Shown in pieces: positions 173 to 38,184 of a DNA stretch of 42,525 nt. A model generated the notes under the pieces. That model was not told the DNA's origin. It was given only the letters and a program-made list of their open reading frames with translations, and made no database searches. Source of the stretch: an uncultured bacterium (GTDB lineage: Bacteria > Patescibacteriota > Minisyncoccia > Phycocordibacterales > DATDWN01); assembly GCA_903861205.1 (NCBI GenBank), contig CAIOTC010000017.1, positions 1-42,525 on the forward strand, in the 5' to 3' direction. Made by a program: the position numbers and the translations under genes. Positions within the stretch are counted from its first letter, which is position 1. The number at the start of each line of letters is the position of its first letter.

Positions 173-1279
173 TTATTTTAGGCCATTATTTAGATACTCC
201 ATTATAATTTCATGAACCTCATCGGCGTTTTCCGCTTCCATCAATTTCATTCGCAATTCTTTGGCACCATCAAAGCCATTTACGTACGCTTTGAAATGTT
301 TTTTCATGACGGCAAACGATTTTCCCTGCCCTATCGGCGGTTTCGGCTGAACGATTTCCGAAAAAAGTTTTGTGTGTTCGTCGAGAACTTTTAGTTTTTC
401 AGGAACCCCAAGGGGAACCCTTAAATTTCCAATTCCCAAGGGTTCCCCTTTGGGTTCATTCGATGCGGGTGCGAACAACCACGGGTTGCCGAAAATGGCG
501 CGGCCGATCATCACGCCGTCGCAGCCGGTTTCGCGCGCTTTTTGTTTGGCGTCCGCTACGCTCGTCACATCACCGTTGCCGAAAATGAGTGTCTCACTTT
601 TTTCTCCGTTTGGTCTGCGCCAAGCATCGCGAATCTCCACAGCGCGTTTTATATGTTCCCATCGCGCCGGCACCAGCGAGAGTTCTTTTCGCGTCCGAGC
701 GTGAATGGTGATAACCGCCGGTTTCGTTTCGAGCAAAGCCGGTAACCATGTTTCCAGTTCATTTTTATTCCAGCCAATTCGAGTTTTGACGGAAATTGGT
801 ATCTCCCCGAGGAGAGACCTTGGGGTGCCTAAGGACTCACCTCGGGGAGACCTCTGAATGCGGGCGCCTTGTTTGGCGGCCAAAATAATTTCCTGCGCCA
901 GTTTAGGATTCTGCATTAGCTTCGCGCCGGCGCCCTGCTTTTCCACGCTTTTGTCCGGACAACCCATGTTGATGTCGATGCCGTCAAAACCAAGTTCGAC
1001 GGCCAGCTCGGCGGCTTTACGCATCATCTCCGGATCGCTCGTAAAAAACTGCGCCACGATAGGTCGTTCGCTTTCATCGAAAGCCAAATCGCCGATCAGC
1101 GCTTCCCTACCGCCCAGAAAAAGTCCGTCCGCCGAAACAAACTCCGTCCACATCACGTCCGGCTTGCCGTATTTGGCAATAATTGCTCGAAAAGCCCGAT
1201 CGGTAACATCCGCCATCGGCGCCAGGCACAATATTGGCTCGCCCTTCTTTTCTTTTTTTAACTTCTGCCAAAAATTCAT
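173..1279 (-). CDS. dus: tRNA-dihydrouridine synthase (Dus family). Start moved to the ATG giving MNFWQKL; the track ORF begins at an upstream TTG.
   Basis: LCLAPMADVTDRAFR, GFDGIDINMGCP and KTRIGW motifs are typical of the Dus TIM barrel. The gene contains two in-frame hairpin segments (403-457, 802-850). Confidence 0.9.
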   Translation of the reverse strand: MNFWQKLKKEKKGEPILCLAPMADVTDRAFRAIIAKYGKPDVMWTEFVSADGLFLGGREALIGDLAFDESERPIVAQFFTSDPEMMRKAAELAVELGFDGIDINMGCPDKSVEKQGAGAKLMQNPKLAQEIILAAKQGARIQRSPRGESLGTPRSLLGEIPISVKTRIGWNKNELETWLPALLETKPAVITIHARTRKELSLVPARWEHIKRAVEIRDAWRRPNGEKSETLIFGNGDVTSVADAKQKARETGCDGVMIGRAIFGNPWLFAPASNEPKGEPLGIGNLRVPLGVPEKLKVLDEHTKLFSEIVQPKPPIGQGKSFAVMKKHFKAYVNGFDGAKELRMKLMEAENADEVHEIIMEYLNNGLK

Positions 1280-3641: not shown

Positions 3642-3892
3642 TTCGAGAACTTCGTTGGTCCTCTAGAAGATGTATGTTTTCAACTTTTGACAATCCTGAA
3701 GAAACCAGAGTATTCTATAAAACTCCTTTCTCCGCTTTCCCAAGGCGGTATCTTAGGGAGGGAAAGACCGGAAATGAACGTTGGTCTTTAATCAAACTAT
3801 CACAAATGCAAAATTTTGCAAATGTTAGTCAGAGAGGGGCATCCTCTCGATTCGGGGTTGAGAAGATGCCCCTCTCTGATATAATTATTATC

Positions 3893-4796: not shown

Positions 4797-7043
4797 ATGA
4801 CAAAACTTTTAATCGTTGAATCTCCGGCAAAAGCAAAAACAATTTCAAAATATTTGGACGGCAAGTACGAGGTGGTCGCCAGTGTCGGACACATTCGTGA
4901 TTTGCCGAAATCAAACAAAATCGCCATCGATATTCCAGGCGGTTTTATTCCGCATTACGAAATTTCCAAAGGCAAAGAAAAAATTGTTTCGGAAATAAGA
5001 TCGCTCGCTAAAAAAGCTGACATTGTCCTGCTAGCCACCGACCCCGACCGCGAAGGCGAGGCAATCGCTTGGCATATCGAACAGCTCATCAGAGGTGATT
5101 TTCCAAATTCCAAAGTCAAAAAAACGGAAACCGACGACAAAATTAAACGTGTCAGCTATCACGAAATCACCAAAGAAGCTATCGAAGAAGCTCTGGAACA
5201 TCCGAGGGAAATCGATCAGAATTTGCGCCAAGCCCAGGAAGCTCGACGCGTTTTGGACAGGCTTGTCGGCTACGATTTATCCGGACTCATCTGGAAAAAA
5301 GTGCGTTACGGACTTTCAGCCGGACGCGTTCAGTCGCCCGCTTTGCGCATCATCATGGAACGCGAGCGCGAAATCCGCGCTTTCAAATCGCACAAGTTCT
5401 GGGTTATTTCCGCCGATGTTATTCCCCAAGGTGACACCTTGGGGGAAAAGTTTACCGTTGTCTGCGAAAAAGAACCGACCATCAAGGGCGAGGTAGAGCA
5501 GATTATTTTGGACGCTGAAAAAGCCGGAAAAGAAAACAGCTGGTACGTCAAAGATGTCAAAGAAACGCAAGTTAAGAAAACTCCGCGACCACCGTTCATC
5601 ACTTCCACGCTCCAGCAGTCGGCCAGCACGCGTCTCGGTTTCGCTCCATCGCGTACAATGGGCATCGCTCAAAAACTTTACGAATCCGGTTACATCACAT
5701 ACATGCGCACAGACTCAACCAACCTCTCTCAGCTCGCGCTCGGCCAAATCGCCGGTGAAATAGAGAAAAGATTTGGTAAAGATTTTTTGCAGTTCAGAAA
5801 ATATGCAGCCAAAAGCAAAAATGCCCAGGAAGCCCACGAAGCAATTCGCCCGACGCACATGTCCGTTGAAAAAGCCGGGCACACCGATGAACAGCAAAAG
5901 TTGTACGAACTTATCTGGCACCGCACACTCGCTTCGCAGATGCGCGACGCCGAAACTTTGCGAACAAAAATCACAGCAAACGTGGCTGGCGACAAAGTTC
6001 CAGATTTTTCCTCTGTCGGTTCGCGTGTCATTTCTCCCGGCTGGCTTTTGGGCGACCCTGCTTCGCGAGGCGAAGATGTGGAATTACCGAAAGTAAAAAC
6101 TGATGAAAATCTTACGCTTGAAAAAGTTAGCACTGAGGAAAAAGAAACGGAACCGCCGACAAGATATTCCGAAGCCGGATTAGTCAAGGAATTGGAAAAA
6201 CGTGGCATCGGCCGACCTTCGACGTACGCTTCGATTATCAAAACGATCGAAGACCGCGGATACGTAGAAAAAATAAACAAAGCTCTTGTGCCGACGGACA
6301 CAGGCGATGTCGTTTCGTCATTTTTGGAAAAAAATTTCGAAAGTTACATCAGCGACGATTTCACTGCCGAGATGGAAGACAAACTCGACCTTATCGCTGA
6401 GGGCAAGGAAGACTACACCAAGATGCTGACAAAGTTTTACAAGCCGTTTTTGGCTGACGTCAAAGCCAAAGATAAATTGGACAAAGTGACAAACCTCGGC
6501 GACGCCGATCCAAAATTCAAATGTCCGATTTGCGGAGGTCCGATGATTATCAAACTTTCGCGTGGCGGGAAATTTTTGTCATGCGCCAAATATCCGGACT
6601 GCGACGGGGCGCTGACCATGGACGGACAGGAAATCAAAAAAGATGAACCGATCGGTGTTGATCCGGAAAGCGGTTTGCCAATTTTTGTCATGATTGGAAA
6701 ATATGGACCTTATGTACAGCTCGGCGAACGAGCCAGTGGCAAAGGTAGCACAAAGGCCGCCAAACCGAGAATGGCTAGTGTGCCAAAAGGCAAGGATTTG
6801 TCGACGATTACTTTGCAGGAAGCGCTAAAATATTTATCGCTGCCGCGCGTCCTCGGCGTCCATCCGGCTACGGGCGAAAAAATTTCCGCCAATGTCGGAA
6901 TGTTTGGACCGTACGTCGTTCACCAAAAAGATTTTCGGTCGCTCAAAGCGCCAGATGATGTTTACACCGTCGAACTCCCCCGCGCTCTGGAAATTTTCGC
7001 TCAAGAGAAGAAAAAACGCGGGTTTGCGAAGAAGAAAAAGTAA
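4797..7043 (+). CDS. topA: DNA topoisomerase I
   Basis: A TOPRIM start (LLIVESPAKAKTISKYL), the active-site region YITYMRTDS and a C-terminal Cys4 zinc ribbon (CPICGG...CAKYPDC) are present. The size is 748 aa. Confidence 0.95.
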   Translation: MTKLLIVESPAKAKTISKYLDGKYEVVASVGHIRDLPKSNKIAIDIPGGFIPHYEISKGKEKIVSEIRSLAKKADIVLLATDPDREGEAIAWHIEQLIRGDFPNSKVKKTETDDKIKRVSYHEITKEAIEEALEHPREIDQNLRQAQEARRVLDRLVGYDLSGLIWKKVRYGLSAGRVQSPALRIIMEREREIRAFKSHKFWVISADVIPQGDTLGEKFTVVCEKEPTIKGEVEQIILDAEKAGKENSWYVKDVKETQVKKTPRPPFITSTLQQSASTRLGFAPSRTMGIAQKLYESGYITYMRTDSTNLSQLALGQIAGEIEKRFGKDFLQFRKYAAKSKNAQEAHEAIRPTHMSVEKAGHTDEQQKLYELIWHRTLASQMRDAETLRTKITANVAGDKVPDFSSVGSRVISPGWLLGDPASRGEDVELPKVKTDENLTLEKVSTEEKETEPPTRYSEAGLVKELEKRGIGRPSTYASIIKTIEDRGYVEKINKALVPTDTGDVVSSFLEKNFESYISDDFTAEMEDKLDLIAEGKEDYTKMLTKFYKPFLADVKAKDKLDKVTNLGDADPKFKCPICGGPMIIKLSRGGKFLSCAKYPDCDGALTMDGQEIKKDEPIGVDPESGLPIFVMIGKYGPYVQLGERASGKGSTKAAKPRMASVPKGKDLSTITLQEALKYLSLPRVLGVHPATGEKISANVGMFGPYVVHQKDFRSLKAPDDVYTVELPRALEIFAQEKKKRGFAKKKK

Positions 7044-8787: not shown

Positions 8788-8910
8788 CAAATTTCTTACG
8801 AGCCAACACTTTTCCGTCGCCAGAATATTTTTCTGCTGAAAAATTTCTTCCTGCTCGTCTCTTCACGGGCTCCGCAATGCGCCGTAAAAGCGTCGGCTCG
8901 ACAAAATTTG
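8788..8910. repeat. Family L element copy 3 (short form)
   Basis: The sequence caaatttcttacgagccaacactttt ... aaaagcgtcggctcgacaaaatttg is about 90% identical to copies at 35812-35950 and (reverse complement) 24610-24744. Confidence 0.85.
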
Positions 8911-10019: not shown

Positions 10020-10028
10020 GGGTATATT

Positions 10029-12906: not shown

Positions 12907-13797
12907 ATGCAAAAATTAATCGTCATACTCGGGCCAACATCCGGAGGAAAATCGGATACTGCGGTAAAAATCGCCAAGAAATTTGACGGGGAAATTATTT
13001 CGGCCGATTCGCGACAGGTATACAAAGGCCTCGACATTGGCACGGGAAAAATCACAAAGAAAGAAATGCGTGGCATTCCCCACCACATGCTTGACGTAGC
13101 AAATCCTAAAAAAAGATTTGATGTAGCGATGTGGCAAAAACAAACCAAAATAATAATTGCTGATATTTTTGCTCGCGGAAAATTACCAATCATCTGTGGT
13201 GGCACTGGATTTTATATCCAATCAATTGTCGACAATTTGGAATTGCCGGAAGTTCCGCCAAACAAAAAATTGCGAGAAAAATTGGAAAAGAAAACTTTAC
13301 CAGAACTTATTGAAATTTTAAAAAAGCTTGATCCGGAAAAATTGAAAACAATCGACACCAAAAATCCGGTCCGGCTTGTCCGCGCCATTGAGATTGCCAC
13401 CCAGCTCGGCTCCGTGCCAAAATTGCAAAAAAATAATAATGACTATGAAATTCTCCAAATTGGCCTAACATTTCCTGACAAAATTTTGAAAAAAAGAATT
13501 TTCATTCGCCTTCGAAGGCGAATGAAAATGGGAATGCTTGATGAGGCAAGAAAACTACACAAAGCAGGCTTGTCGTGGAAAAGGATGAATGAACTTGGTT
13601 TGGAATACAGGCACATGGCGTTACTTTTGAATAACAGAATGTCTCGTGAAGAATTCATCCAAAAATTGAACACTGAAATCTGGCATTACGCCCGCCGACA
13701 GTGGCAATGGTTTAAGCGCGACAAAAACATCAAATGGTTCTCGCCCACTGAAATCAACAAAATCGAAAAAGAAGTGGAAAAATTTATGAAAAAGTAG
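12907..13797 (+). CDS. miaA: tRNA dimethylallyltransferase. Start moved to MQKLIVILGPTSGGKS.
   Basis: P-loop GPTSGGKS and ISADSRQVYKGLDIGTGK are present. The upstream part of the track ORF runs through the terminator hairpin. Confidence 0.9.
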   Translation: MQKLIVILGPTSGGKSDTAVKIAKKFDGEIISADSRQVYKGLDIGTGKITKKEMRGIPHHMLDVANPKKRFDVAMWQKQTKIIIADIFARGKLPIICGGTGFYIQSIVDNLELPEVPPNKKLREKLEKKTLPELIEILKKLDPEKLKTIDTKNPVRLVRAIEIATQLGSVPKLQKNNNDYEILQIGLTFPDKILKKRIFIRLRRRMKMGMLDEARKLHKAGLSWKRMNELGLEYRHMALLLNNRMSREEFIQKLNTEIWHYARRQWQWFKRDKNIKWFSPTEINKIEKEVEKFMKK

Positions 13798-16167: not shown

Positions 16168-16240
16168 GTACAAAAAGAGTACCAAATTTTTCGATTTGAT
16201 ACAACTTTTGTCATAAAGGTTCGACCTTGATGCCCAGTTC

Positions 16241-18925
16241 CTAAGGTCGAACCTTGGAGGAGGAATCCGACACAAAACTCTCAGTCACAAACGAACCACG
16301 ACGGCCTTTTTTGACAGTAAGGATATACTCCTCGCCTTTCATATCCACTGCAATTTCCCCACCTTTGGAAATTCCCTTGCTGACAATGAGCGAGGCAATC
16401 GGCGTCAGAATTTTATTTTGGATCAATCGTCGAAGCGGGCGAGCGCCATACTGCGGATTGTAACCTTCCTTGGCCAAGTGGTCGTAAACCGCTTGCGTCA
16501 ATTCGAGTGTAATTTCTTTTTGAGCCAATCTGTCTTTCACAATATCGATTTGAATTTTGACAATTTCGGCGATAGCTTCCCTGCTCAAAATGTCAAAGAC
16601 GATGATGTCGTCGAGACGGTTCAGAAATTCCGGTCGGAAGTGATCTTTCAGCGCTTCCATCACTTTTGTTTTGGCATCTTCGTAACCGGCCTTTTCATTT
16701 TTGTCGACGGCGAAACCGATTTTTTGCATTTTGTCGATGTACTGCGAGCCGATGTTCGACGTCAAAATGATAACCGTGTTGCGGAAATTGGCCACGCGGC
16801 CTTTCGCGTCCGTCAATCGTCCGTTGTCGAGAACTTGAAGCAAAATGTTGAAAACTTCCGGATGAGCTTTTTCGATTTCGTCGAAAAGAATAACCGAGTA
16901 TGGGCGATGTCGAACAAGCTCCGTCAAATTTCCACCCTCCTCGTAACCGACATAGCCAGCCGGCGCGCCGATCAGTTTCGAGACGGAATGTTTTTCCATG
17001 TATTCGGACATGTCAATTCTGATGAGTGCTTTGTCATCGTCGAACATGAATTGCGCCAGCGCTTTGGTCAGCTCTGTTTTTCCCACGCCAGTCGGACCGA
17101 GGAAAAGGAACGAACCGATCGGACGATTCGGATCGGCCACCCCAGCACGCGAACGTTTAACCGTGTCGGAAATTTTTATGACAGCTTCTTTTTGGCCGAC
17201 AATGCGCTTTTCCAAAACATCTTCCATGCGTGAAAGTTTATCCGCTTCCTCCTCGAGCATTCGCGAGACTGGAATTCCCGTCCATTTTGAAACAATCGAA
17301 GCGATATCGTTTTCGGTCACTTCCTCCTTCAAAATTCTGCGCGAACTTTGCAATTTTTTCAATTTTTTCGATTTTGAATCCAAATCTTTTTCATAAGCGG
17401 GGATTGTGCCATAGCGAATCTCGGCCGCCTTTGACAAATCCACCCGCCCTTCGGCAACATCGGCTTCCCGACGCGCTTCCTCGAGTTGCTTCTTTAAATT
17501 TTTGATGTCGCTGACCGTTTCCTTTTCATTATTCCACTTCAATTCCAACTCGCCTGTTTTTTCTTTCAAATCGGCAATTTCTTTTTCGATTTCTTTGACA
17601 CGAGACTTGGATTTTGAATCGGTTTCTTTTTTGAGTGCCTCGCGTTCGATTTCAAGCTTAACCACTTTCGAATGCGTCTCCTGCAAAATCGGTGGCATAT
17701 TTTCTAGCGCAATTTTCAGATGCGAAGCCGACTCGTCGATCAGGTCGACCGCTTTGTCCGGCAAAAATCTGTCGGCGATATAACGACTTGAAAGGTTGAC
17801 CGCGGACACAATGGCTTCATCGGTGATGCGCACACCGTGGTAGAGCTCATACTTTTCTTTCAGTCCGCGCATAATGGTGATGGCATCGTCGATCGACGGC
17901 TCGTTGACGTAAACAGGCTGAAAGCGACGAGTCAGCGCCGGATCCTTTTCGATATATTTTTGATATTCCTTGAGTGTTGTCGCGCCAATCGCCCGCAGTT
18001 CTCCGCGCGCCAGTGCCGGTTTGAGCATGTTCGAAGCGTCGAGCGAACCCTCCGCTGCGCCGGCTCCGACAATGGTGTGAATTTCATCGACGAACAAAAT
18101 TATTTTGCCGTCGGAACGTTCGATTTCTTTCAAAATATTTTTCAGACGTTCCTCGAACTCCCCGCGATATTTCGTGCCGGCCACCAAAAGTCCGAGGTCA
18201 AGCGAAACGAGTTCCTTGTCTTTGAGCGATTCCGGCACGTCGTGGGTGGACATGCGGATGGCCAAACCCTCGACGATGGCGGTTTTGCCGACACCAGCCT
18301 CACCGATCAGAATCGGATTATTTTTCGTTCGACGAGAAAGAATCTGAATGATGCGCGAAATTTCACTGTCGCGTCCGATGACCGGATCGAGTTTATTCTG
18401 GTGAGCCAAGTGCGTCAGATTGCGAGTGTACTTGGAAAGCGCTTTAAACTTTTTTGGCGCTTCCTGCTCAACACTTTTCGTGCTCTTTATTTCCCCCAAA
18501 CAACGCAAAACAGTTTCCTTGTCGATTTTGAATTTCATCAAAAGGTCGTGCGCCGGGGAAGGCGTTTCGATGGTGGCGATGAAAAGATGTTCCACTCCGA
18601 CAAACTCGTCGCGCATGTCGGAAGCTACTTTTCCGGAAGCTTCGATGACTTGGGCCAGCTCGGGCGTCAAATAAATCTGATACGAAGCAGAAAGTGTTTG
18701 GCCTGTTTCGGTGCCTTCGATGGTGTCGAGAAGCGAATCGGTCAGAAGTATAGTGTCCACCTCGAGACGATCGAGAATCGACGGGACGATCGATTCTTCC
18801 TGCAAAATAAGCGCGGTCAAAAGGTGGAGCGGGCTGACATGATTTTGACCGCGTTCAATAGCCAGCTCGTGAGCTTTGCGAATGGATTCTTTGGCTTTTG
18901 TTGTAAATTTTCCAAATGGAGGCAT
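16241..18925 (-). CDS. clpB: ATP-dependent chaperone ClpB
   Basis: A Clp N domain, two AAA+ modules ([16 protein letters not shown]) and a long coiled-coil middle domain are present. The size is 894 aa. Confidence 0.95.
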
Positions 18926-19430: not shown

Positions 19431-21443
19431 ATGAATAAGAAAACACTTACGGGACCGATATCAATCAATTCCAAGGGAATTGGTTTTTTTGATTTGCCGG
19501 ACAAAAAAGAGGAATCGCTGGAAATTCAGCCTGAGAATTTGGCGCGGGCTTTTCACGGAGATGTCGTTGAAGTCCAAAAGCTTGGTGGTCCTAAACCGAG
19601 AAAAAGTCTTGGTCGGGCGAGAGAAGTCAAAGAGCAAGCCAAAGTGGTCAGAATAATTTCTCGCGCCAAAACTCAATTCGTCGGCATAATCCAAAAAACA
19701 GACGACAAATCATTTTTGATTCCGGATGATAAAAGAATGTACGTGGATATTTTTATTGACCCAAAATCTTTAGCAAGGACAGTCCTTGCTAAAACTGAAA
19801 ACCAGAAAATTCTTGTAGAAATCACCGACTGGCCGGAAACGGAGAAAAATCCGCGCGGAAAAGTTGTTAAAGTCATCGGTACAGCCGGCGAAAACAACAC
19901 CGAGATGGAATCAATCGTTTTGGAAAAAGGTTTCCGAGTCGACTTCCCTGCCGAAGTTTTGGCCGAGGCGGAAAAAATTAAAAATGAATACAAAAGTCAT
20001 TTTGCCGAGGAAGTGAAAAATCGCCGCGACATGCGCGAAACTTTAACCATGACTATCGATCCTGCCGACGCCAAAGATTTTGACGATGCCATTTCTTTTA
20101 AAGAACTTTCCGACGGAACTTTTGAAATCGGCGTGCATATTGCCGACGTGTCATATTTCGTCACGCCCGGCACAGTGCTTGATCGCGAGGCGGAAAAACG
20201 AGGACTGTCAGTTTATCTCGTCGATCGAACTATTCCGATGTTGCCGGAAGTTTTAAGTAATGACCTTTGTTCTCTCAATCCAAACGAGGACAAGTTCACT
20301 TTTTCGGCCGTTTTCAAAATCGACAAAAATGCCAAGATTTTAGACAAATGGTTTGGCCGAACTGTCATTCACAGCGACAAAAGATTTTCATACGAAGACG
20401 CTCAGAAAGTTTTGGACAATGCGAGCTCACCTGGTGTCAACGGCGAAGCAACGTGGTCACCGGGTGTGGGCGCATTGTCCAAACTAAACAACCTCGCAAA
20501 AATTCTGGAGAAGCAAAAATTTGGCGCAGGCGCAATTAATTTTGAAACAGACGAAGTTAAATTCGTTTTGGACGCGGCCGGCAAACCTCTTTCAGTTTAC
20601 AGAAAAACTCGCCTGGACACGCACAAGCTTGTCGAGGAATATATGCTCCTGGCCAATCGCGCGGTCGCCGAACATATTTTCCATTCTCAAAATAACGAGT
20701 CCTTAGCAAGAACTGTTCTTGCTAAAAAACAAAGTGTTTACAGAATTCACGGCAAACCTGATCCGGAACGCATCGAAGCATTGGCGTTTTTTTTGAAAGC
20801 GCTTGGTTTTGATTTGCGAAACGAAAAAGGTTCTGTCACCTCGCGCGACATCAACAAACTGCTCAAGCAGGTGGAAGGCACACCGAACGAAGAACTGATC
20901 AAAACCGCCACCATTCGCAGTATGGCCAAAGCCGTTTACTCGACCAAAAATATCGGGCACTTCGGTCTGGCTTTCAGATTTTACACGCACTTCACCTCGC
21001 CTATTCGCCGATATCCCGATTTGCTGGTGCACAGATTTTTGGAACGCGAAATCGATGGCGGAAAAATTGCTCCAAATGAATACGAGAAATTTGAAAAGTC
21101 ATGCTTGGCACTCTCCGAACTGGAAAAGAAAGCCAGCGACGCAGAAAGAGCCAGCATCAAATACAAGCAGGTTGAATACATGCAATCGCATGTCGGCGAA
21201 ACTTTCCAAGGCACTATCACCGGCGTAACCGACTGGGGAATTTACATCGAGGAAAAAATTACCAAATGCGAAGGCATGGCAAAACTACGCGACCTGAATG
21301 ACGACTATTATGTCCTCGACGAAAAAAATTACACAATCCGCGGCCAGCGCACCGGCAAAAAATACACACTTGGTGATTCTGTCACATTCAAAGTTGTGGC
21401 GGCAGACATGGAGAAAAGAGTTTTGGATTACCAGATTTTGTAA
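19431..21443 (+). CDS. rnr: Ribonuclease R (RNB family 3'-5' exoribonuclease)
   Basis: The RNB core (TIDPADAKDFDDAIS, VYLVDRTIPMLP, FTSPIRRYPDLLVHR) and a C-terminal S1 domain are present. The size is 670 aa. Confidence 0.9.
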   Translation: MNKKTLTGPISINSKGIGFFDLPDKKEESLEIQPENLARAFHGDVVEVQKLGGPKPRKSLGRAREVKEQAKVVRIISRAKTQFVGIIQKTDDKSFLIPDDKRMYVDIFIDPKSLARTVLAKTENQKILVEITDWPETEKNPRGKVVKVIGTAGENNTEMESIVLEKGFRVDFPAEVLAEAEKIKNEYKSHFAEEVKNRRDMRETLTMTIDPADAKDFDDAISFKELSDGTFEIGVHIADVSYFVTPGTVLDREAEKRGLSVYLVDRTIPMLPEVLSNDLCSLNPNEDKFTFSAVFKIDKNAKILDKWFGRTVIHSDKRFSYEDAQKVLDNASSPGVNGEATWSPGVGALSKLNNLAKILEKQKFGAGAINFETDEVKFVLDAAGKPLSVYRKTRLDTHKLVEEYMLLANRAVAEHIFHSQNNESLARTVLAKKQSVYRIHGKPDPERIEALAFFLKALGFDLRNEKGSVTSRDINKLLKQVEGTPNEELIKTATIRSMAKAVYSTKNIGHFGLAFRFYTHFTSPIRRYPDLLVHRFLEREIDGGKIAPNEYEKFEKSCLALSELEKKASDAERASIKYKQVEYMQSHVGETFQGTITGVTDWGIYIEEKITKCEGMAKLRDLNDDYYVLDEKNYTIRGQRTGKKYTLGDSVTFKVVAADMEKRVLDYQIL

Positions 21444-21467: not shown

Positions 21468-21508
21468 AATCCTCCGGCTTCGCCACCTCCTTTAAGAAAG
21501 GAGGAATT
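21468..21508 (+). repeat. 42-nt two-hairpin unit (family U), forward orientation
   Basis: The unit reads aatcctcc-ggcttcgcc-a-cctccttt-aag-aaaggagg-aatt. Confidence 0.8.
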
Positions 21509-21516
21509 GATGCATT

Positions 21517-21946
21517 AATCTCCCTTTTTTAAAGGGAGTGGCCGAAGGCCGAGGGATTTTTAGTGCATTCCACAATTTTTCTTACACAACTCTCTAAATT
21601 AGTTTTTATATCAATATCTCTGAATCTAATTATTTTGACTCCAGCATTCTTTAAAATCTCATCTCTCACCTCATCATTTTCTATTTTTGCATCATGACTA
21701 ATGCCGTCAATTTCAATTGCAAGATTTAATTTTGAACAATAAAAATCAACTATGTAGTTGTTGATAGGTCTCTGTCTCAAAAATTGGCAACCTAATTTTT
21801 TATCTTTTATTTCTTTCCATAGCAATACTTCAGATAATGTTGATTCGTTCCGTAACTTTTTGGAAAATTTTTTTAGATTTTTATTGTAAATGAGTTTCAT
21901 AAAATCCCTCCCCGCTTCGCGGTACTCCCTTTAAGAAAGGGAGATT
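21517..21946 (-). mobile_element. Candidate compact element: a DUF559 endonuclease gene bounded by inverted family-U units (21517-21558 and 21903-21946)
   Basis: The left end is aatctcccttttttaaagggagtggccgaaggccgagggatt. The reverse complement of the right end is aatctccctttcttaaagggagtaccgcgaagcggggagggatt. The unit pair at 29077-29172 shows the same two-end arrangement with only 12 nt between the ends. Confidence 0.5.
21529..21900 (-). CDS. DUF559 / Vsr-like (PD-(D/E)xK) endonuclease domain protein
   Basis: LLWKEIKDKKLGCQFLRQRPINNYIVDFYCSKLNLAIEIDGISHD...IIRF is the DUF559 pattern. The last 9 codons (NPSAFGHSL*) are encoded by the flanking repeat unit. Confidence 0.8.
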   Translation of the reverse strand: MKLIYNKNLKKFSKKLRNESTLSEVLLWKEIKDKKLGCQFLRQRPINNYIVDFYCSKLNLAIEIDGISHDAKIENDEVRDEILKNAGVKIIRFRDIDIKTNLESCVRKIVECTKNPSAFGHSL

Positions 21947-21956
21947 TGAATGCGGG

Positions 21957-24254
21957 TTATTTCGCCACGGCAACGGCTTGATCAAATGCGACCGAGAGAA
22001 GTTTCGAGCCACCACCGAGACCCATGGTTACGCCGTACAAAATCCCCGCACGGGACATTGTTTCGCGGTTGTGGGTAATGACAATGAGTTGCGAACGTTT
22101 GGAAAGATTTTCCACCATATCGCCATACTTTTTGGAATTGGCTTCGTCGAGAGCGGCGTCTGTTTCGTCTAGAATAATAAACGGCGGAGGATTGACTTGA
22201 GAGATGGCAAAAAGCAAAGCGATGGAAGTCAGTGCCCTCTCCCCGCCGGAAAGCATCATCAAACCTTTCACTTTCTTTTTCGGTAACACAACATCGATAT
22301 CAATCCCATCCTCACTTTCCGCTCCGGTTTCTTCAATGGCAAGGGCAGCCCTTGCCATTTCATCACCGTCTTCATTTTCAAATAGGTCATCAATTTCTTT
22401 TTTCTTGCGTTTTGGCGCGGAAATAACGGACAAGCTGGCCTCACCACCACCGAACATCAGAGCAAAATATTCTTTGAACTGCTGGTTGATTTTTTCCACG
22501 CCGGTTTTGAATTCGTTGGAAAGTCGTTCATCCAAATCTTTTATGAGATCTGTCAGCGAATCGGCCGAACCGGAAAGGTCAGTCAGCTCTTTTGCCAGAA
22601 ACTCATCTCGCTCCGAGGCATCAGTGTATTCTTTCATTACATCGGCCCCACCGATTCCGCCGGCATCTTCCAAACGAATTTTTATTTTTTCGATTGTTCG
22701 TCTGCGTTCTTCCTGATTTGCGCGTGGTTCGTCAAAATCAAAAACAAGCGACTCAAATTGCAAAACAGCCGTGCCAAGCATCATTCCAAGCTCTGTTAAT
22801 TCCCTATTGAAATCCTCTTTGACTATTCGCAAAGTTTCCTCCTCCGACTGCAAGCTGTGAATTTGCGATCTGACTTCCTGCTCCTCCGCCATGATTCTGA
22901 AAACCGCTTTTTCGGCGTCGCGATTGGTATCTTTTTCCGTGTTTATTTTTTCCTGTAAAGCCGAATACTCGCGGGACAATTTCGCTTCGTTTGCAATAAC
23001 ATCACCCGCTTCACTGGCAGCAATTTCCTTTTTTCTCCTCAAATCCGCCAAATCTTTTTGGGCTTCAACCAAAAGCGACGTATCCACCTTGTCTTTATTA
23101 CTTTCAATAAAATCTGACAAAAGTTTTCCAATTTCATCAATTTTCCTTATCAAAATATCCACTTTCTCCTGGTCCCAGGTGTCACCTGGGACCAGTTTTT
23201 TGGAATCGGAAATTATTTGTTCTATTTCTTTTTGAACAACTTCGACAGAAACAAGCGTGACTGTTTTGTGCAAATATGAGTTGGCCAGTTCCTCCTGCTT
23301 TTTTATCATTCGGGCCAAGGAGGTTATCTCACCGTCCAGTTCGCCGGACTGACGTAAAAGCTCGTCTTTCTTTTTTCGCGTTTCGTGAAGTTCCCTCTCG
23401 AGTGAAATCAGTTCGTCCGACATGACATCGCGATGTTGTGCGCCTTCCAAAATTTTCTTGGCTTCGGAGAGTTCCTCTTGCAACTTTTTTTCCTGTTTTT
23501 CCAGCGGATGTTTTTTGCCGGAAATATTTTTCTCAATGCGCTTTATATATTCGTCCTCGCGTTTGCAATACTCCAGCGCTTTATCCTGCAAATCTTTTTT
23601 CATTTCAAGCGTCTTCTCCACTTTTTCCACCTGCTTTTTGAGGAATTTGATATGCGGCAAAATTTCTCGTCGAAGAGATTCCACTTGTGCAATATTTTCA
23701 CGAGTTTTCAAAAGTTTTTTCTCACTTTCCTGTTTTTTGTATTGATAAAGTTTCAAACCGAGCGCATCCTCAATCATGGCTTTGCGTTCTTTGATGCTGG
23801 CATTCAAAATTCTGTCCGCTTCGCCCTGCGAAATAATGTGATGTCCGGACGAACCGATATGCGCCGAATGCAAAAGTTCCAACACATCTCGCAAACAAAC
23901 TTGCGAACCGTTGATGGAATACTCGTTGACACCGTCGCGATGCACAACACGTTCAATGATCACCTCCTCGAAATCCACAGGTAGAAATTTGGATTTGTTG
24001 TCGAAAATTATTTTGACGCTTGCCCGATTCGCTCTAGGCAAATCCCCCGCGCCGTTAAAAATCAAATCTTCGCCTTTTTTGCCACGCAGGGATTTGATCG
24101 ACTGCTCGCCAAGAACAAAAGAAAACGCCTCGGCCACATTGGACTTGCCCGAACCATTCGGCCCAACCACCGCAGTAACATTCGAAGTGAAAAGTAATTC
24201 GCTCTTTTTGGCGAAACTTTTGAATCCGGTGAGTTCAATAGATTTCAGATACAT
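21957..24254 (-). CDS. smc: SMC-family chromosome segregation ATPase, short form (765 aa)
   Basis: The Walker A head (VVGPNGSGKSN), long coiled coil, signature motif LSGGERALT and Walker B FIILDETDAALD are present. I could not recognise a canonical hinge. Confidence 0.8.
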   Translation of the reverse strand: MYLKSIELTGFKSFAKKSELLFTSNVTAVVGPNGSGKSNVAEAFSFVLGEQSIKSLRGKKGEDLIFNGAGDLPRANRASVKIIFDNKSKFLPVDFEEVIIERVVHRDGVNEYSINGSQVCLRDVLELLHSAHIGSSGHHIISQGEADRILNASIKERKAMIEDALGLKLYQYKKQESEKKLLKTRENIAQVESLRREILPHIKFLKKQVEKVEKTLEMKKDLQDKALEYCKREDEYIKRIEKNISGKKHPLEKQEKKLQEELSEAKKILEGAQHRDVMSDELISLERELHETRKKKDELLRQSGELDGEITSLARMIKKQEELANSYLHKTVTLVSVEVVQKEIEQIISDSKKLVPGDTWDQEKVDILIRKIDEIGKLLSDFIESNKDKVDTSLLVEAQKDLADLRRKKEIAASEAGDVIANEAKLSREYSALQEKINTEKDTNRDAEKAVFRIMAEEQEVRSQIHSLQSEEETLRIVKEDFNRELTELGMMLGTAVLQFESLVFDFDEPRANQEERRRTIEKIKIRLEDAGGIGGADVMKEYTDASERDEFLAKELTDLSGSADSLTDLIKDLDERLSNEFKTGVEKINQQFKEYFALMFGGGEASLSVISAPKRKKKEIDDLFENEDGDEMARAALAIEETGAESEDGIDIDVVLPKKKVKGLMMLSGGERALTSIALLFAISQVNPPPFIILDETDAALDEANSKKYGDMVENLSKRSQLIVITHNRETMSRAGILYGVTMGLGGGSKLLSVAFDQAVAVAK

Positions 24255-25449: not shown

Positions 25450-25467
25450 ACACGGAGTATAACACAC

Positions 25468-25540
25468 AAATTTTCAATTTACAATTTCAAATTTTCAATG
25501 AATTTCCCAATGAACCAATTTTCAAAAATTCTTCAATCTA
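25468..25540. repeat. AT-rich hairpin family W, partial copy 1 (upstream of rnc)
   Basis: The sequence ttttcaatgaatttcccaatgaaccaatt matches the centres of the copies at 26780, 34033 and 34512. Confidence 0.6.
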
Positions 25541-26711: not shown

Positions 26712-26779
26712 GTCTTACAATATAGTGTATCAAATGACAGATATGATATCAACAAACAAGAATTGCGAACTGAACCGAA

Positions 26780-26892
26780 CAATTTCCAATGATCAATTTT
26801 CAATTTTCAATGAATTTTACAATGAACCAATCGTCCAATTGAAGAATTGATTCATTTATTGGAAATTGAAAATTGTTACTTGAAAATTTCCT
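26780..26892. repeat. Family W hairpin copy 2 (between the nusB start and the rpmF stop)
   Basis: The arms are caattttcaattttcaatgaat / attcatttattggaaattgaaaattg. The centre is caatgaaccaatcgtccaattgaagaattg. Confidence 0.75.
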
Positions 26893-27120
26893 TTATCTTC
26901 CTTCCTTCTGATTTGCTTTTGCTTTCTTTGTTCGTTTTTCGATTTTTGCCTGCACGTCCAAAACCTGTCGGCCTTTGTACTGGCCGGTCACTAAAGAAGC
27001 TCGGTGCCGCAAGTGCGGAACACTGGAATTTTTGTCCATGGTGACAGCCGGGTTCGACAATCTGTGATGAGATCGCGTGTTGCCTCGCTGGCTCCTGTTG
27101 TGTCGCATTCGTACTACCAT
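26893..27120 (-). CDS. rpmF: 50S ribosomal protein L32. Start moved to MVVRMRH.
   Basis: MVVRMRHNRSQRGNTRSHHRL...HLRHRASLVTGQYKGRQV matches the L32 pattern (R.sk.r...RRsH..l........c...Ge..l.H). Confidence 0.8.
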   Translation of the reverse strand: MVVRMRHNRSQRGNTRSHHRLSNPAVTMDKNSSVPHLRHRASLVTGQYKGRQVLDVQAKIEKRTKKAKANQKEGR

Positions 27121-28355: not shown

Positions 28356-29048
28356 TCAAACCAGGTTTTTGCAAAAAGATTTGCGATGAAAAAGGGAGAG
28401 ACCGTGAGTTTGAATGGCAGTGCGATGCGCGAGCGTGCCATAACCTTTGTGAATATGAAAATTGTAAAGCGGATATTTTTTGCTCGCTTTGCACATTAGT
28501 TTGTCACGCGAAACTTTTGCCAAAATCGACGCCCAGGCGATAATTTTTTCTTTTTCGTCGCCTTTTATAATAGTAAATTGTTTTACTTGTTTAACAGAAT
28601 ATCCGTTTGTAAGTTCAGCTGGAACTTTTAATCCCCCATCTAATAAAATTTTTAATTTAAAATTTTTAATTTTTAAATAATTTTTAATGTCTAAATTTCC
28701 AAAACCTTTTGCAATGGCTTTTTTGATGCATTTGGAAATTCCGATTTTGTCGATTTCTTTGTTTGAGATATGAACAATTTGAGCTTGCAGAAGGGCACCT
28801 TCTGCAGAATTCGTGCAGAAGGTGCCCTTCTGCAACTGTTCCAAGACTTTTGCATACTTCTCGCGAGATTCCGGAGAAAGTTTTTTGCTGTCTTTGCCGA
28901 GTGGTGGCAAACGCCCCGCCACACCGGCGGGCAAGTTGTTTCGCTTCAGTTTGGCGTACAATTTTTCCTCACACATCACAATCCCCACCGTCACAGGCCC
29001 TGCCAATGGTCCCCTCCCAACTTCGTCAATGCCGATAATGTAGTTCAT
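28356..29048 (-). CDS. rnhB: Ribonuclease HII. Start moved to MNYIIGIDEVGRGPLAGPV.
   Basis: GIDEVGRGPLAGPV, DSKKLS and ASILAKVSRD are RNase HII motifs. The gene carries a 51-nt double hairpin and an AT-rich in-frame block. Confidence 0.9.
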   Translation of the reverse strand: MNYIIGIDEVGRGPLAGPVTVGIVMCEEKLYAKLKRNNLPAGVAGRLPPLGKDSKKLSPESREKYAKVLEQLQKGTFCTNSAEGALLQAQIVHISNKEIDKIGISKCIKKAIAKGFGNLDIKNYLKIKNFKLKILLDGGLKVPAELTNGYSVKQVKQFTIIKGDEKEKIIAWASILAKVSRDKLMCKASKKYPLYNFHIHKGYGTLAHRTAIQTHGLSLFHRKSFCKNLV

Positions 29049-29172: not shown

Positions 29173-29248
29173 AATGCGTGAGCTATTAAAGAATATCTTA
29201 TCACAAAAATAAAAGCCCCGGCGTTTCCGCGCGGGACTGTACAACTTT

Positions 29249-33774: not shown

Positions 33775-33783
33775 ATGATAAAA

Positions 33784-37951: not shown

Positions 37952-38184
37952 AAAAATTTCTTAAAACATTACCTTTTCGGAGACGAAAGCCCGTCCAGCG
38001 ACGGGCTTTCTCTGTCCTCGGCCTCGATTTGTCAATGAGCCCCTCTCCAGTTTTAAGGTCTGGCCTTGGGAAATTGGCTGTTTAAGGCCAGACCTTTGGA
38101 ATCCAAAACTGGGGAGGGGTCGTTGACAAAACCATGCTCGAGGCCTGCGGATGCTCCGAAAAGGTAATGTTTTAAGAAATTTTT
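37952..38184. repeat. Family L element copy 8 (long form) carrying a nested double hairpin at its apex (38047-38112)
   Basis: Perfect 24-nt outer arms are aaaaatttcttaaaacattacctt / aaggtaatgttttaagaaattttt. The core is collinear with the reverse complement of copy 5. TAGTGGTGA follows. Confidence 0.85.

What the first reader, a model, noticed from the sequence alone, without database searches (positions are those of the whole stretch)
5423..5447. topA palindrome CCCCAAGGTG-a-CACCTTGGGG shares its GGTGACACC core and its encoded GDT tripeptide with the smc palindrome
The topA palindrome at 5424-5444 encodes PQGDTLG. The smc palindrome at 23169-23195 (ctggtcccaggtg-t-cacctgggaccag) encodes VPGDTWD on the other strand. 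The two unrelated genes therefore carry the same palindromic core CARGGTGACACCYTG read in the same frame. That points to a common origin or a common sequence-specific process rather than independent drift. A smaller palindrome cttcgc-gag-gcgaag lies at 6061-6075.
Basis: seen in the sequence. Interest (0 to 1): 0.65.

Follow-up and report, generated by a model that had tools for sequence, protein, structure and literature searches.

The report
REP-like hairpin repeats inside CPR genes
The two matching palindromes in topA and smc are copies of a short hairpin-forming repeat that has inserted in frame into many housekeeping genes of this ultra-small (CPR) bacterium; in related CPR genomes the same kind of hairpin flanks a REP-type tyrosine transposase gene, so this is a gene-invading version of the bacterial REP/REPIN repeat system.

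Summary
The topA (5424-5444) and smc (23169-23195) palindromes exist as described. Each is a lineage-specific in-frame insertion. They match over 17 of 19 stem positions (CCC-A(A)-GGTGACACC-(T)T-GGG), not only over a 9-mer.

They belong to a population of at least 12 intragenic AGG...CCT-stem hairpins in this 42.5-kb window (2.0 expected with protein sequence and codon usage held fixed). The hairpins occur as singlets and inverted doublets in topA, smc, rnr, dnaE, rnhB and dus.

The organism is a CPR bacterium (Paceibacterota). Across CPR classes the same hairpin type forms genome-specific, multi-copy dispersed families, often inside long ORFs. Sixteen RAYT-like Y1 (IS200-like) transposase ORFs were found in the fetched DNA, and 10 are flanked on both sides by such hairpins. 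Five loci fetched by protein homology share one conserved gene neighbourhood. That is the REP/REPIN-RAYT arrangement.

The 9-mer occurs 4 times against 1.2 expected once codon usage is controlled, and sharing a frame has p of about 0.2. One palindrome (miaA) arose instead by template switching.

REPs inside genes are already known (Opitutus, Rickettsia). I found no report for CPR. Verdict: real, and a new variant of a known kind.

The parts
5424..5444 (+). Single hairpin unit (10+1+10) in topA, encoding PQGDTLG. Subfamily CCC-A(A)-GGTGWCACC-(T)T-GGG.
   Evidence: It lies in an indel hotspot after FWVISADV. The closest orthologue, L004, has no hairpin there. In the AF2 model it forms the turn between strands 200-210 and 219-223, with a pLDDT dip. 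ssDNA fold z = -3.2.
23169..23195 (-). Single hairpin unit (13+1+13) in the SMC-like gene, encoding (L)VPGDTWDQ. Same subfamily as the topA unit.
   Evidence: VPGDTWDQ is an 8-aa insertion found in 1 of 121 orthologues, and P0139 has PKGNSFGK at the same site. ssDNA fold z = -5.7.
22335..22359 (-). Single hairpin (12+1+12), AATGGCAAGGGC-A-GCCCTTGCCATT, in the SMC-like gene, encoding MARAALAI. Subfamily GCAAGGNCNGNCCTTGC.
   Evidence: It lies in a low-occupancy acidic linker of the orthologue alignment.
19769..19793 (+). Single hairpin (12+1+12) in rnr (RNase R), encoding LARTVLAK.
   Evidence: It sits at a gap relative to B. subtilis RNase R. Only 2 of 6 orientation/frame combinations are stop-free.
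20703..20725 (+). Second copy of the same hairpin (11+1+11) in rnr, encoding LARTVLA. It differs from the first copy by a compensatory G/A...C/T change.
   Evidence: It lies in an 11-residue insertion absent from B. subtilis and E. coli RNase R.
28785..28835 (-). Inverted doublet (22+7+22, perfect; centre contains GAATTC) of unit TGCAGAAGG-GCA-CCTTCTGCA in rnhB.
   Evidence: The RNase HII domain spans 223 aa against a 198-position Pfam model. ssDNA fold z = -10.
30258..30310 (+). Inverted doublet of unit ACAAGGG-GGA-CCCTTGT in dnaE, at the end of the PHP domain.
   Evidence: ssDNA fold z = -7.2.
32267..32319 (+). Inverted doublet of unit AAAAGGG-TGC-CCCTTTT in dnaE (HhH region), encoding KKRVPLLNPDEKGHPFS.
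   Evidence: There is a 23-residue insertion between residues that are adjacent (883/885) in T. aquaticus Pol III alpha.
403..457 (-). Inverted doublet (unit CCCAAGGG-GAA-CCCTT) in dus, encoding PKGEPLGIGNLRVPLGVP.
   Evidence: It is a partial insertion relative to T. maritima Dus, 1vhn.
802..850 (-). Long imperfect hairpin or doublet (23+3+23, 87%) in dus, encoding SPRGESLGTPRSLLGE.
   Evidence: It falls in an 11-residue gap relative to 1vhn.
3829..3879 (+). Inverted doublet (unit GAGAGG-GGCAT-CCTCTC). It probably lies just upstream of the true dprA start.
   Evidence: The dprA orthologues are 284-286 aa, against a 361-aa ORF here.
16216..16255 (.). Doublet AAGGT-TCG-ACCTT / AAGGT-CGA-ACCTT at the clpB 3' end.
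38055..38096 (.). Intergenic doublet AAGG-TCTGG-CCTT / AAGG-CCAGA-CCTT. It resembles the L132 topA insert.
13498..13529 (+). Perfect 16+16 palindrome in miaA, made by template switching and not by insertion.
   Evidence: There is no indel relative to L004 and L005. The right arm consists of conserved KRMK codons. The left arm has been overwritten by its reverse complement, changing ILTRII to IFIRLR.
6061..6075 (+). Small 6+3+6 palindrome in topA. It is not part of the system and is at chance level.
   Evidence: It encodes the conserved ASRGED motif. The orthologues use non-palindromic codons. Stems of 6 are not enriched.
21470..21556 (+). Intergenic ~88-nt inverted-doublet repeat (REPIN/MITE-like). 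Other copies lie at 39427-39512, 29080-29175 (permuted) and 21904-21948 (half).
   Evidence: It folds as one long hairpin of -46 kcal/mol, z = -5. It has no Rfam family.

Best explanation
The topA and smc palindromes are two copies of a short REP-like hairpin repeat, with a lineage-specific unit CCC-A(1-2)-GGTGWCACC-T(1-2)-GGG. They belong to a larger population of AGG...CCT-stem hairpins that occur as single units and as inverted doublets (REPIN/BIME-like) throughout CPR/Patescibacteria genomes.

Proposed mechanism:
1. A single-copy, vertically inherited RAYT-like Y1 (HUH) transposase recognises the hairpin in single-stranded DNA and disperses copies. No target-site duplication is made.
2. 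These genomes are about 85% coding, so many insertions land in genes. Only in-frame, stop-free copies in tolerant surface loops or linkers survive. The stems help here, because the 5' arm is C/A/G-rich and the 3' arm C/T/G-rich, which makes them almost stop-free. They encode P/K/Q/R-G-D/E-x-L-G-type loop peptides.
3. Arm complementarity is then maintained. This shows as compensatory changes, and is due either to selection for a foldable hairpin or to hairpin-templated (template-switch) correction. The same fold-back process can occasionally create a palindrome de novo, as in miaA.

Shown here: the insertions, the excess over chance, the multi-copy genome-specific families, the doublet architecture, and the physical association with Y1 transposase genes in related CPR genomes.

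Inferred: that this transposase mobilises the hairpins, that the window's own genome encodes one, and that the inserts are translated.
For: Insertions: VPGDTWDQ occurs in 1 of 121 SMC-like orthologues. At the topA loop, the window, L005, L006 and L132 carry four different perfect palindromes of 21, 52, 49 and 38 nt, and the closest relative, L004, carries none. The rnr, dnaE and dus inserts are absent from solved homologues.

Excess over chance: 7 against 0.36 for stem >=10, and 12 against 2.0 for the AGG class, both under a codon-aware null.

Copies at unlinked sites: the topA and smc units differ by one compensated indel. The two rnr copies differ by one compensated substitution. AGGTGWCACCT occurs only in this strain and in L006 among 213 loci.

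CPR-wide, genome-specific families with unrelated flanks: GTACAAGGGCCGCCCTTGTAC at 6 or more sites, TCCAAGGG(CTA/TAG)CCCTTGGA at 9 or more, AAGGGGWCCCCTT at 10 or more, and two identical 46-nt doublets in one pheT. Of the first 120 pattern hits, 67 are from named CPR taxa.

Hosts are real housekeeping genes: UvrD-like, RecG, PheT, LepA, UvrB and DinB.

Transposase link: the L120 ORF matches Pfam Y1_Tnp at 35.6 bits (cut-off 23), and its best NCBIfam family is REP_Tyr_transpos. It is flanked on both sides by cognate doublets. A profile search finds 16 such ORFs in 2.1 Mb, at 12.2 per Mb in hairpin-selected loci against 0.84 per Mb in controls. Ten of the 16 are flanked on both sides within about 65 nt, including Paceibacterota L085. 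Five loci chosen only by protein homology share one synteny.

No target-site duplications are present, as expected for Y1/HUH elements. Compensatory maintenance is seen between L132 and L148.
Against: No Y1 transposase ORF lies in the 42.5-kb window, and the rest of this genome could not be reached. The link for this organism is therefore by analogy with other CPR, including one Paceibacterota MAG.

The window's hairpins are heterogeneous, falling into several small subfamilies. They are not one high-copy consensus.

No GTAG or CGTC tag flanks them.

The NCBIfam RAYT score is below the curated equivalog cut-off (43 against 80 bits).

In topA the net length gain over the closest orthologue is only 3 aa, and there is no gain at all over E. 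coli. That event was therefore not a clean insertion of 21 nt.

Six of the 16 transposase ORFs lacked hairpins on both sides under my filter.

The miaA case shows that a second, transposase-independent route to perfect palindromes operates in the same genome.

Transcription and translation of the inserts were not tested, because no RNA runs were available.
Confidence: 0.62

Rival explanations
1. There is no mobile element. The palindromes are made and kept perfect in situ by replication template switching (fold-back or quasi-palindrome correction). This would be unusually frequent in a repair-poor CPR genome, and selection would keep only the in-frame, tolerated products.
For: The miaA palindrome at 13498-13529 has the textbook signature. 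There is no length change, one arm is conserved ancestral codons, and the other arm is overwritten by its reverse complement. Arms of up to 24 nt are perfect. Different sequences occupy the same topA loop in different lineages. Many doublets are perfect palindromes through a small palindromic centre such as GAATTC, CACGTG or AAGCTT, which is where strand switching would start. Compensatory changes are seen. The same idea has been proposed for coding palindromes in Nematomorpha mitochondria (PMC6649704).
Against: Local copying cannot produce near-identical units at unlinked sites. Examples are topA and smc, the two rnr copies, the two identical 46-nt doublets in L033, and families of 6-10 or more copies with unrelated flanks in single MAGs. 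For smc and rnr neither arm is ancestral, because the whole palindrome is inserted. Local copying also does not explain the AGG...CCT sequence class, or its tight association with Y1 transposase genes.
Confidence: 0.2
2. The hairpins are host cis-elements under selection, not selfish DNA. They could be RNA structures that modulate mRNA decay or translation, or DNA sites bound by a nucleoid, gyrase or replication protein. In this view they are placed inside genes because intergenic space is scarce.
For: Stem pairing is conserved by compensatory change. The class is conserved across CPR classes. Host genes lean towards replication and repair, as Di Nocera et al. noted for intragenic REPs (PMC3733652). 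In one Paceibacterota MAG the units are physically linked to TTATCCACA, a DnaA-box-like motif. REPs in E. coli have been assigned host roles (my own knowledge).
Against: Presence is patchy among close orthologues. L004 has none in 13 kb, and each insert occurs in 1-2 of about 120 orthologues. Positions are the variable loops of proteins, not fixed sites. Sequence and copy number are genome-specific. No RNA data were available.
Confidence: 0.1
3. The resemblance is coincidental. Codon usage plus a G-D/V-T peptide would generate GGTGWCACC, and two unrelated palindromes happen to share it.
For: Under a codon-aware null the 9-mer is expected 1.18 times. Two of its four occurrences are ordinary conserved coding motifs. 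Given two AGG...CCT hairpins with 1-nt loops, sharing the two inner bases is not rare. Sharing a frame has p of about 0.2.
Against: The similarity extends over 17 of 19 stem positions with a symmetric indel. Both are insertions absent from orthologues. Perfect stems of 10 and 13 are about 20-fold or more above the codon-aware expectation. The 11-mer unit is confined to this lineage among 2.1 Mb of fetched DNA.
Confidence: 0.04
4. The palindromes are an assembly or amplification artefact, such as chimeric fold-back reads.
For: Metagenome assemblies can create inverted chimeras. Some chimeric joints at repeats are visible in the Logan contigs.
Against: The identical topA sequence occurs on contigs from at least 3 independent samples. 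Contigs from four runs cover the topA, rnr and smc palindromes with no differences. All reading frames stay intact. Analogous inserts occur in hundreds of independent MAGs from ENA, JGI, NCBI and Logan.
Confidence: 0.01

Closest known systems
REP / BIME / REPIN elements with their RAYT (REP-associated tyrosine transposase), as in E. coli and Pseudomonas (Bertels & Rainey 2011, PMC3116915; Di Nocera et al. 2013, PMC3733652)
   Same: The units are short stem-loops of 13-27 nt. The consensus is genome-specific. Copies are dispersed and occur as singlets, inverted doublets and tandem clusters. A single-copy Y1/HUH transposase gene is bracketed by cognate units and sits in conserved synteny, which indicates vertical inheritance. 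No target-site duplications are made. Di Nocera et al. already report REPs inside genes, often as dimers encoding 20-30 aa and often in replication and repair genes.
   Different: Here most copies in the window, and about 58% of CPR doublets, lie inside ORFs, so they are not extragenic. There is no GTAG or CGTC tag. The units are shorter and have an AGG...CCT stem. The host is CPR/Patescibacteria, for which I found no report. The transposase scores below NCBI's RAYT equivalog cut-off and may be a separate RAYT-like clade. Arms are often perfectly complementary.
Rickettsia palindromic elements (RPE; Ogata et al. 2000, as cited in PMC3733652 and PMC1779305)
   Same: They are palindromic repeats inserted in frame into functional housekeeping genes of a small, gene-dense genome. 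They add surface peptide segments, and insertions are patchy between related species.
   Different: From my own knowledge, RPE-1 is about 100-150 bp, against 21-55 nt here. Sequence relatedness was not tested. RPEs decay with time, whereas many CPR copies keep perfect arms. No dedicated transposase is known for RPEs, whereas a RAYT-like gene is linked here.
Coding palindromes in Nematomorpha mitochondrial genes (Mikhailov et al. 2019, PMC6649704)
   Same: They are perfect inverted repeats embedded in functional protein-coding genes. Gain and loss are dynamic. Conversion or template switching is proposed to keep the arms identical. The miaA palindrome here is of this type.
   Different: There, both arms encode conserved protein sequence and the repeats are long (up to 284 bp), unique and not inserted. 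Here most are short multi-copy insertions into variable loops and are associated with a transposase.
Quasi-palindrome template-switch mutagenesis in E. coli (Ripley; Lovett laboratory; my own knowledge)
   Same: This mechanism converts imperfect inverted repeats to perfect ones. It explains the miaA case and possibly how the arms stay perfect.
   Different: It does not create dispersed families of identical units and does not involve a transposase.

Membership tests
REP/REPIN-RAYT system | A short (about 20-40 nt) imperfect or perfect palindrome able to form a stem-loop. | tested here: met
   Stems are 7-13 nt with 1-5-nt loops. ssDNA folds give z = -3.2 to -10.
REP/REPIN-RAYT system | Many dispersed copies with a genome-specific consensus and unrelated flanks. 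| tested here: met
   This is met in related CPR MAGs, with 6-10 or more copies in 8-24 kb samples. In the window only small subfamilies are visible: 2 copies of the GGTGWCACC unit, 3 of the GCAAGGNCNGNCCTTGC unit, and 6 AAGGGNNNCCCTT units. The whole genome could not be examined.
REP/REPIN-RAYT system | Units organised as inverted doublets (REPIN/BIME) that can fold into one long hairpin. | tested here: met
   There are 5 intragenic and at least 2 intergenic doublets in the window. Five share a 28-nt unit offset. More than 120 doublets were found in genome contigs.
REP/REPIN-RAYT system | A cognate single-copy Y1 (HUH) transposase gene flanked by the same units. | tested here: met
   This is met in related CPR genomes. 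Sixteen Y1_Tnp ORFs were found, and 10 are flanked on both sides within about 65 nt. Five share synteny. For the window's own genome it could not be tested, because no Y1 ORF lies in the 42.5 kb.
REP/REPIN-RAYT system | A conserved GTAG or CGTC tetranucleotide tag at one end of the unit (the superfamilies of Di Nocera et al.). | tested here: not met
   The 8-10 nt flanks of all window units show no GTAG or CGTC tag.
REP/REPIN-RAYT system | Extragenic location. | tested here: not met
   Twelve of the 14 AGG-class hairpins in the window are inside ORFs. Forty of 69 CPR doublets lie in open frames of >=150 aa, against 76% for random sites.
REP/REPIN-RAYT system | The transposase reaches the curated RAYT model threshold. 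| tested here: inconclusive
   REP_Tyr_transpos is the best NCBIfam family, at E = 3.6e-11, but the score is 43 bits against a cut-off of 80. Pfam Y1_Tnp scores 35.6 bits against a cut-off of 23.
Rickettsia palindromic elements (RPE) | In-frame insertion of a palindromic repeat into functional ORFs. | tested here: met
Rickettsia palindromic elements (RPE) | Sequence homology to, and length class of, the RPE families. | not tested
   No RPE reference sequence was compared. The lengths here (21-55 nt) are shorter than RPE-1 (my own knowledge).
MITE (miniature inverted-repeat transposable element) | Terminal inverted repeats with flanking target-site duplication. | tested here: not met
   No direct repeats flank any of the 10 window elements.
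Template-switch (quasi-palindrome) product | One arm is ancestral sequence and the other is replaced by its reverse complement, with no net insertion. | tested here: not met
   This is not met for the topA and smc palindromes, because in smc the whole palindrome is inserted. It is met for the miaA palindrome at 13498-13529.
Over-represented oligonucleotide of the HIP1 or uptake-signal type | A short motif strongly enriched genome-wide without being an insertion. | tested here: not met
   GGTGWCACC occurs 4 times against 1.18 expected under the codon-aware null. Two of the sites are ordinary coding motifs.

The most novel reading that the evidence does not exclude
CPR/Patescibacteria carry a phylum-wide, vertically inherited REPIN-RAYT-like system whose hairpin elements have colonised coding sequence on a large scale. 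Transposase-driven hairpin insertion, together with fold-back correction, would then be a major and so far unrecognised source of the lineage-specific loop insertions seen in conserved CPR proteins (TopA, DnaE, SMC, RNase R, UvrB, RecG, LepA and others). The RAYT-like gene would represent a distinct clade with its own, non-GTAG recognition rule.
Probability: 0.45. Interest if true: 0.72.

Novelty: new variant of a known kind. Interest (0 to 1): 0.6.

Why it matters
If this is right, it explains an otherwise puzzling feature of CPR proteomes: short, lineage-specific insertions in highly conserved housekeeping proteins. It would extend the REPIN-RAYT system, so far studied in Proteobacteria, to the largest uncultivated bacterial radiation. 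It would also show what happens to such repeats in a genome with almost no intergenic space, where they live inside genes.

There are practical consequences:
- These hairpins break assemblies and create chimeric joints.
- They inflate apparent protein divergence and can mislead alignments and phylogenies of marker genes.
- They provide strain-level markers.

Together with the miaA case, this gives a natural system for studying how perfect DNA palindromes and protein function coexist.

Tried and rejected
1. My genome-wide pattern used a 9-13-nt spacer, whereas the three window copies have 15 nt. The scan therefore did not target the window's exact architecture. It still hit its 120-locus limit, mostly in CPR.

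2. In L024 a ~660-nt segment bracketed by doublets looked like a transposase cassette. It encodes only small membrane-like ORFs.

I used them as a control set instead.

4. RNA evidence: no RNA-seq run holds the sequence. The DNA runs are kept only as contigs, so presence/absence polymorphism could not be assessed.

5. Rfam: at gathering thresholds only three tRNAs were found. The intergenic repeat gives only sub-threshold, generic miRNA-hairpin matches.

6. LARTVLA as a conserved duplicated protein motif of RNase R: rejected, because both copies lie at gaps or insertions relative to solved RNase R structures.

7. A GDT or PxGDTxG protein motif: rejected, because the inserts are unique to this lineage.

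8. All orthologue indels being hairpins: rejected. Only the 3 indels at the topA hotspot, out of 18 indels of >=3 aa, are strong hairpins.

9. The stems are SD/anti-SD-like (AAGGTGA / TCACCTT). I noted this but did not test it, and I do not rely on it.

10. An N-run in L212 flooded one hairpin listing. This was a script oversight and has no effect on the conclusions.

11. Literature: six searches found no report linking REP/RAYT or in-frame palindromes to CPR. The library lacks most subscription journals.
Full report
**1. The observation**

CCCCAAGGTG-A-CACCTTGGGG occupies 5424-5444 and reads PQGDTLG in the frame of a 748-aa topoisomerase I (ORF 4797..7043; Toprim, Topoisom_bac, Zn ribbon). 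CTGGTCCCAGGTG-T-CACCTGGGACCAG occupies 23169-23195 and reads LVPGDTWDQ on the minus strand in a 765-aa SMC_N protein. CTTCGC-GAG-GCGAAG is at 6061-6075.

The two main palindromes are more alike than reported. They are CCC-AA-GGTGACACC-TT-GGG and CCC-A-GGTGACACC-T-GGG, identical apart from a symmetric, base-pair-preserving 1-bp indel in the stem.

**2. Is it more than chance?**

The 9-mer GGTGWCACC occurs four times, against 0.08 expected from dinucleotide shuffles. All four sites are in the frame GGT-GWC-ACC. When I shuffled synonymous codons within genes, which keeps proteins and codon usage fixed, the expectation rose to 1.18. Two of the four sites are ordinary conserved coding motifs with no extended palindrome: a TrxB-like GVTYC and an HTH GVTRQT.

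Each of the two palindromes is stop-free in 5 of the 6 orientation/frame combinations. Sharing one combination therefore has p of about 0.2.

The palindromes themselves are not chance, under the same codon-aware null:
- Intragenic perfect hairpins with stem >=10: 7 observed, 0.36 expected.
- Stem >=12: 5 observed, 0.01 expected.
- Hairpins with AGG next to the loop: 12 observed, 2.0 +/- 1.5 expected.
- All stem->=6 hairpins: barely enriched, 80 against 62 +/- 8.

The 6061-6075 palindrome encodes the conserved ASRGED motif and is at chance level.

**3. What else is in the window**

The window holds a population of related elements:
- Two near-identical hairpins in rnr (TTAGCAAGRACWGTYCTTGCTAA, both encoding LARTVLA), which differ by a compensatory G/A...C/T pair.
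- A second hairpin in smc (GCAAGGGC-A-GCCCTTGC).
- Inverted doublets of AAGG(G)-NNN-(C)CCTT units in rnhB, dnaE (two) and dus (two), upstream of dprA, and in two intergenic sites.
- Five of the doublets share a 28-nt unit offset.

The hosts are core housekeeping genes.

**4. They are insertions**

The organism is a CPR bacterium (Paceibacterota, near Zambryskibacteria).

topA: in an alignment of 26 TopA orthologues, the topA palindrome lies in an indel hotspot after FWVISADV. At the DNA level this one loop carries different perfect palindromes in different lineages:

| Source | Palindrome at the loop |
|---|---|
| Window | 21 nt |
| L005 | 52 nt (24+4+24) |
| L006 | 49 nt (24+1+24) |
| L132 | 38-nt doublet |
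| L004 (84% identical, closest orthologue) | none, and no hairpin anywhere in topA |

The net gain in the window over L004 is only 3 aa, and there is none over E. coli. The event was therefore not a clean 21-nt insertion. An AF2 model of modest confidence (mean pLDDT 71) places PQGDTLG in the turn between two beta-strands, with a local confidence dip.

smc: VPGDTWDQ occurs in 1 of 121 orthologues. One other orthologue has PKGNSFGK at the same site.

Other hosts:
- The second rnr hairpin lies in an 11-residue insertion absent from B. subtilis and E. coli RNase R.
- The dnaE doublet lies in a 23-residue insertion between residues that are adjacent in T. aquaticus Pol III alpha.
- A dus doublet falls in an 11-residue gap relative to T. 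maritima Dus.

An unbiased survey of 18 orthologue indels of >=3 aa found strong hairpins only at the topA hotspot. Hairpin inserts are therefore a distinct class.

Four independent assemblies reproduce the palindromes exactly.

**5. A second route exists**

The perfect 16+16 palindrome in miaA (13498-13529) is not an indel. Its right arm is made of conserved KRMK codons shared with the orthologues. Its left arm has been overwritten by the exact reverse complement, changing ILTRII to IFIRLR. This is the signature of template switching (quasi-palindrome correction).

Between L132 and L148, one hairpin of an orthologous doublet changed from AAGGT...ACCTT to AAGAT...ATCTT. The stem was kept while the two hairpins drifted apart. 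Pairing is therefore maintained at the level of the single hairpin.

**6. Distribution**

A scan of 185,579 species genomes for AAGGGNNNCCCTT-N(9-13)-AAGGGNNNCCCTT stopped at its 120-locus limit:

| Group | Loci |
|---|---|
| Named CPR taxa (Saccharibacteria, Paceibacterota/Parcubacteria, Niyogi-, Doudna-, Lloyd-, Gottesmanbacteria, WWE3) | 67 |
| Unclassified "bacterium" | 10 |
| Desulfovibrio/Desulfolutivibrio, with their own REP-like family | 15 |
| Other | 28 |

By my own rough knowledge CPR make up only a few percent of that collection's bases.

Forty of 69 CPR doublets lie in open frames of >=150 aa, against 76% for random sites. Hosts include UvrD-like, RecG, PheT, LepA, UvrB and DinB.

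Intragenic perfect-hairpin density per 100 kb of coding sequence is about 20 in the window, 0 in L004, 6.6 in other CPR topA loci and 2.4 in non-CPR topA loci.

**7. They are repeat families**

Within single MAGs the unit is a genome-specific, multi-copy repeat with unrelated flanks, present as singlets, inverted doublets and tandem arrays:
- GTACAAGGGCCGCCCTTGTAC at 6 or more sites.
- TCCAAGGG(CTA/TAG)CCCTTGGA at 9 or more sites.
- AAGGGGWCCCCTT at 10 or more sites.
- Two identical 46-nt doublets in one pheT.

Local fold-back copying cannot produce this. The unit shared by topA and smc (AGGTGWCACCT) occurs among 213 loci only in this strain and, twice, in L006. There it forms a doublet at a different topA site.

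**8. Transposase link**

Searching all fetched ORFs with E. coli RayT gave one hit, in Saccharibacteria locus L120. It matches Pfam Y1_Tnp above threshold. Its best NCBIfam family is REP-associated tyrosine transposase, below the strict cut-off. The gene is flanked on both sides by doublets of one unit.

The family has at least 7,871 members. Five contigs fetched by protein homology alone place the gene in one conserved neighbourhood: RecA - FtsK - ... - Y1_Tnp - LCAT - ... - DUF1360 - L10 - L12. Four of the five have cognate doublets on both flanks, and the fifth (L212) has one upstream only.

A profile of the family finds 16 ORFs in 2.1 Mb, at 12.2 per Mb in hairpin-selected loci against 0.84 per Mb in controls. 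Ten of the 16 are flanked on both sides within about 65 nt, including a Paceibacterota MAG.

Single copy, synteny and flanking cognate palindromes are the defining behaviour of RAYTs (PMC3116915, PMC5581495; abstracts). No target-site duplications flank the window elements.

**9. Interpretation**

The best reading is a REP/REPIN-RAYT-like system in CPR whose units persist inside genes. The stems have a C/A/G-rich 5' arm and a C/T/G-rich 3' arm, so they are nearly stop-free. The doublets are open in 3-6 of 6 orientation/frame combinations, against 2.25 for random 51-nt palindromes. They encode flexible P/K/G/D/E/L loop peptides.

What is inferred, not shown:
- That the transposase moves these units.
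- That this genome has such a transposase, because none lies in the window.
- That the inserts are translated.

Template switching clearly operates as well (miaA). It may be what keeps the arms perfect, and I rank it as the main rival for origin.

**10. Comparison with what is known, and novelty**

REPs inside genes are already described. They are often dimers encoding 20-30 aa and often lie in replication and repair genes, notably in Opitutus terrae and Rickettsia conorii (PMC3733652). Rickettsia RPEs are the classic in-frame palindromic inserts.

The CPR case differs in these ways:
- The host phylum.
- The high intragenic share.
- The short AGG...CCT units without a GTAG or CGTC tag.
- The frequent perfect arms.
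- A possibly distinct RAYT-like clade.

I found no report linking these elements to CPR. The library omits most subscription journals.

Verdict: a real feature, a new variant of a known kind, of moderate to high interest.

Noticed in passing
window 21470-21556, 39427-39512, 29080-29175 (permuted), 21904-21948 (half): An intergenic repeat of about 88 nt, made of two imperfectly complementary ~42-nt modules (AATCCTCCGCCCTGCGGGCACCTCCTTTAAGAAAGGAGGATT and ATCTCCCTTTTTTAAAGGGAGTGGCCGAAGGCCGAGGGATTT). It folds as one long hairpin (-46 kcal/mol, z = -5). An exact 27-mer occurs three times, always on the + strand. It has no Rfam family. It looks like an ordinary extragenic REPIN/MITE-like element in the same genome, and its stems are SD/anti-SD-like.
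   Followed up: partly
window 13498-13529 (miaA): A perfect 16+16 palindrome created without any length change. The conserved right arm (KRMK codons) was copied as its reverse complement over the left arm, changing ILTRII to IFIRLR. This is a clean natural example of template-switch mutagenesis inside a gene.
   Followed up: yes
window 8789-8909 and 35821-35941: A 121-nt dispersed intergenic repeat, 94% identical between the two copies. Assembly depth around 8859 is about 218x against about 5x for the rest of the contig in four runs, so the element is multi-copy or shared by many community members. It has no Rfam match.
   Followed up: partly
window 33650-33782 and 41488-41621: A duplicated segment of about 130 nt (79-88% identical). 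One copy lies immediately upstream of the XRE-type HTH gene that contains one of the GGTGTCACC sites.
   Followed up: no
window 25461-25526, 26773-26902, 27190-27255, 34024-34153, 34503-34639: Families of AT-rich CAATTTNCAATTT-type repeats in intergenic regions. They may be promoter or regulatory arrays.
   Followed up: no
window 27618-28020: A cluster of DnaA-box-like 9-mers (TTATCCACA with up to 1 mismatch) and a 33-nt inverted repeat in an AT-rich intergenic region, which may be oriC. In Paceibacterota MAG U3062 (L024, L085, L086) the same 9-mer is physically linked to the hairpin units.
   Followed up: partly
window 21957-24254 (minus strand): The SMC-like protein is only 765 aa and has no hinge-domain hit. 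Its 120 closest orthologues are 740-790 aa, mostly 747-755. This CPR clade therefore has a markedly shortened SMC-type ATPase.
   Followed up: no
L209-L213 (gene at about 10001-10700, or 2788-3480 in L210): The CPR Y1_Tnp (RAYT-like) gene sits in a conserved neighbourhood: RecA - FtsK - ... - Y1_Tnp - LCAT-domain protein - ... - DUF1360 - L10 - L7/L12. Toxin-antitoxin pairs (RelB/YafQ, BrnT/CopG, ParE) often lie just upstream.
   Followed up: partly
L029, L036, L040, L050, L062, L070, L077, L078, L087, L093, L108, L112, L116, L119, L124: Desulfovibrio genomes carry their own conserved doublet family, GGGGGGAAGGGGACCCCTTT-N11-AAAGGGGTCCCCTTCCCCCC. It is a REP-like element that the pattern scan picked up.
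   Followed up: no
window 2704-2721 (serS): A perfect 9+0+9 palindrome, TGTGTGAGG|CCTCACACA, inside the seryl-tRNA synthetase gene. It was not compared with orthologues.
   Followed up: no
window 7303/21466 and 8909/22337 (Logan contigs of runs X1, X2, X4): Chimeric contig joints link the intergenic repeats and the second smc hairpin to distant sites. These repeats therefore break or mis-join short-read assemblies.
   Followed up: no
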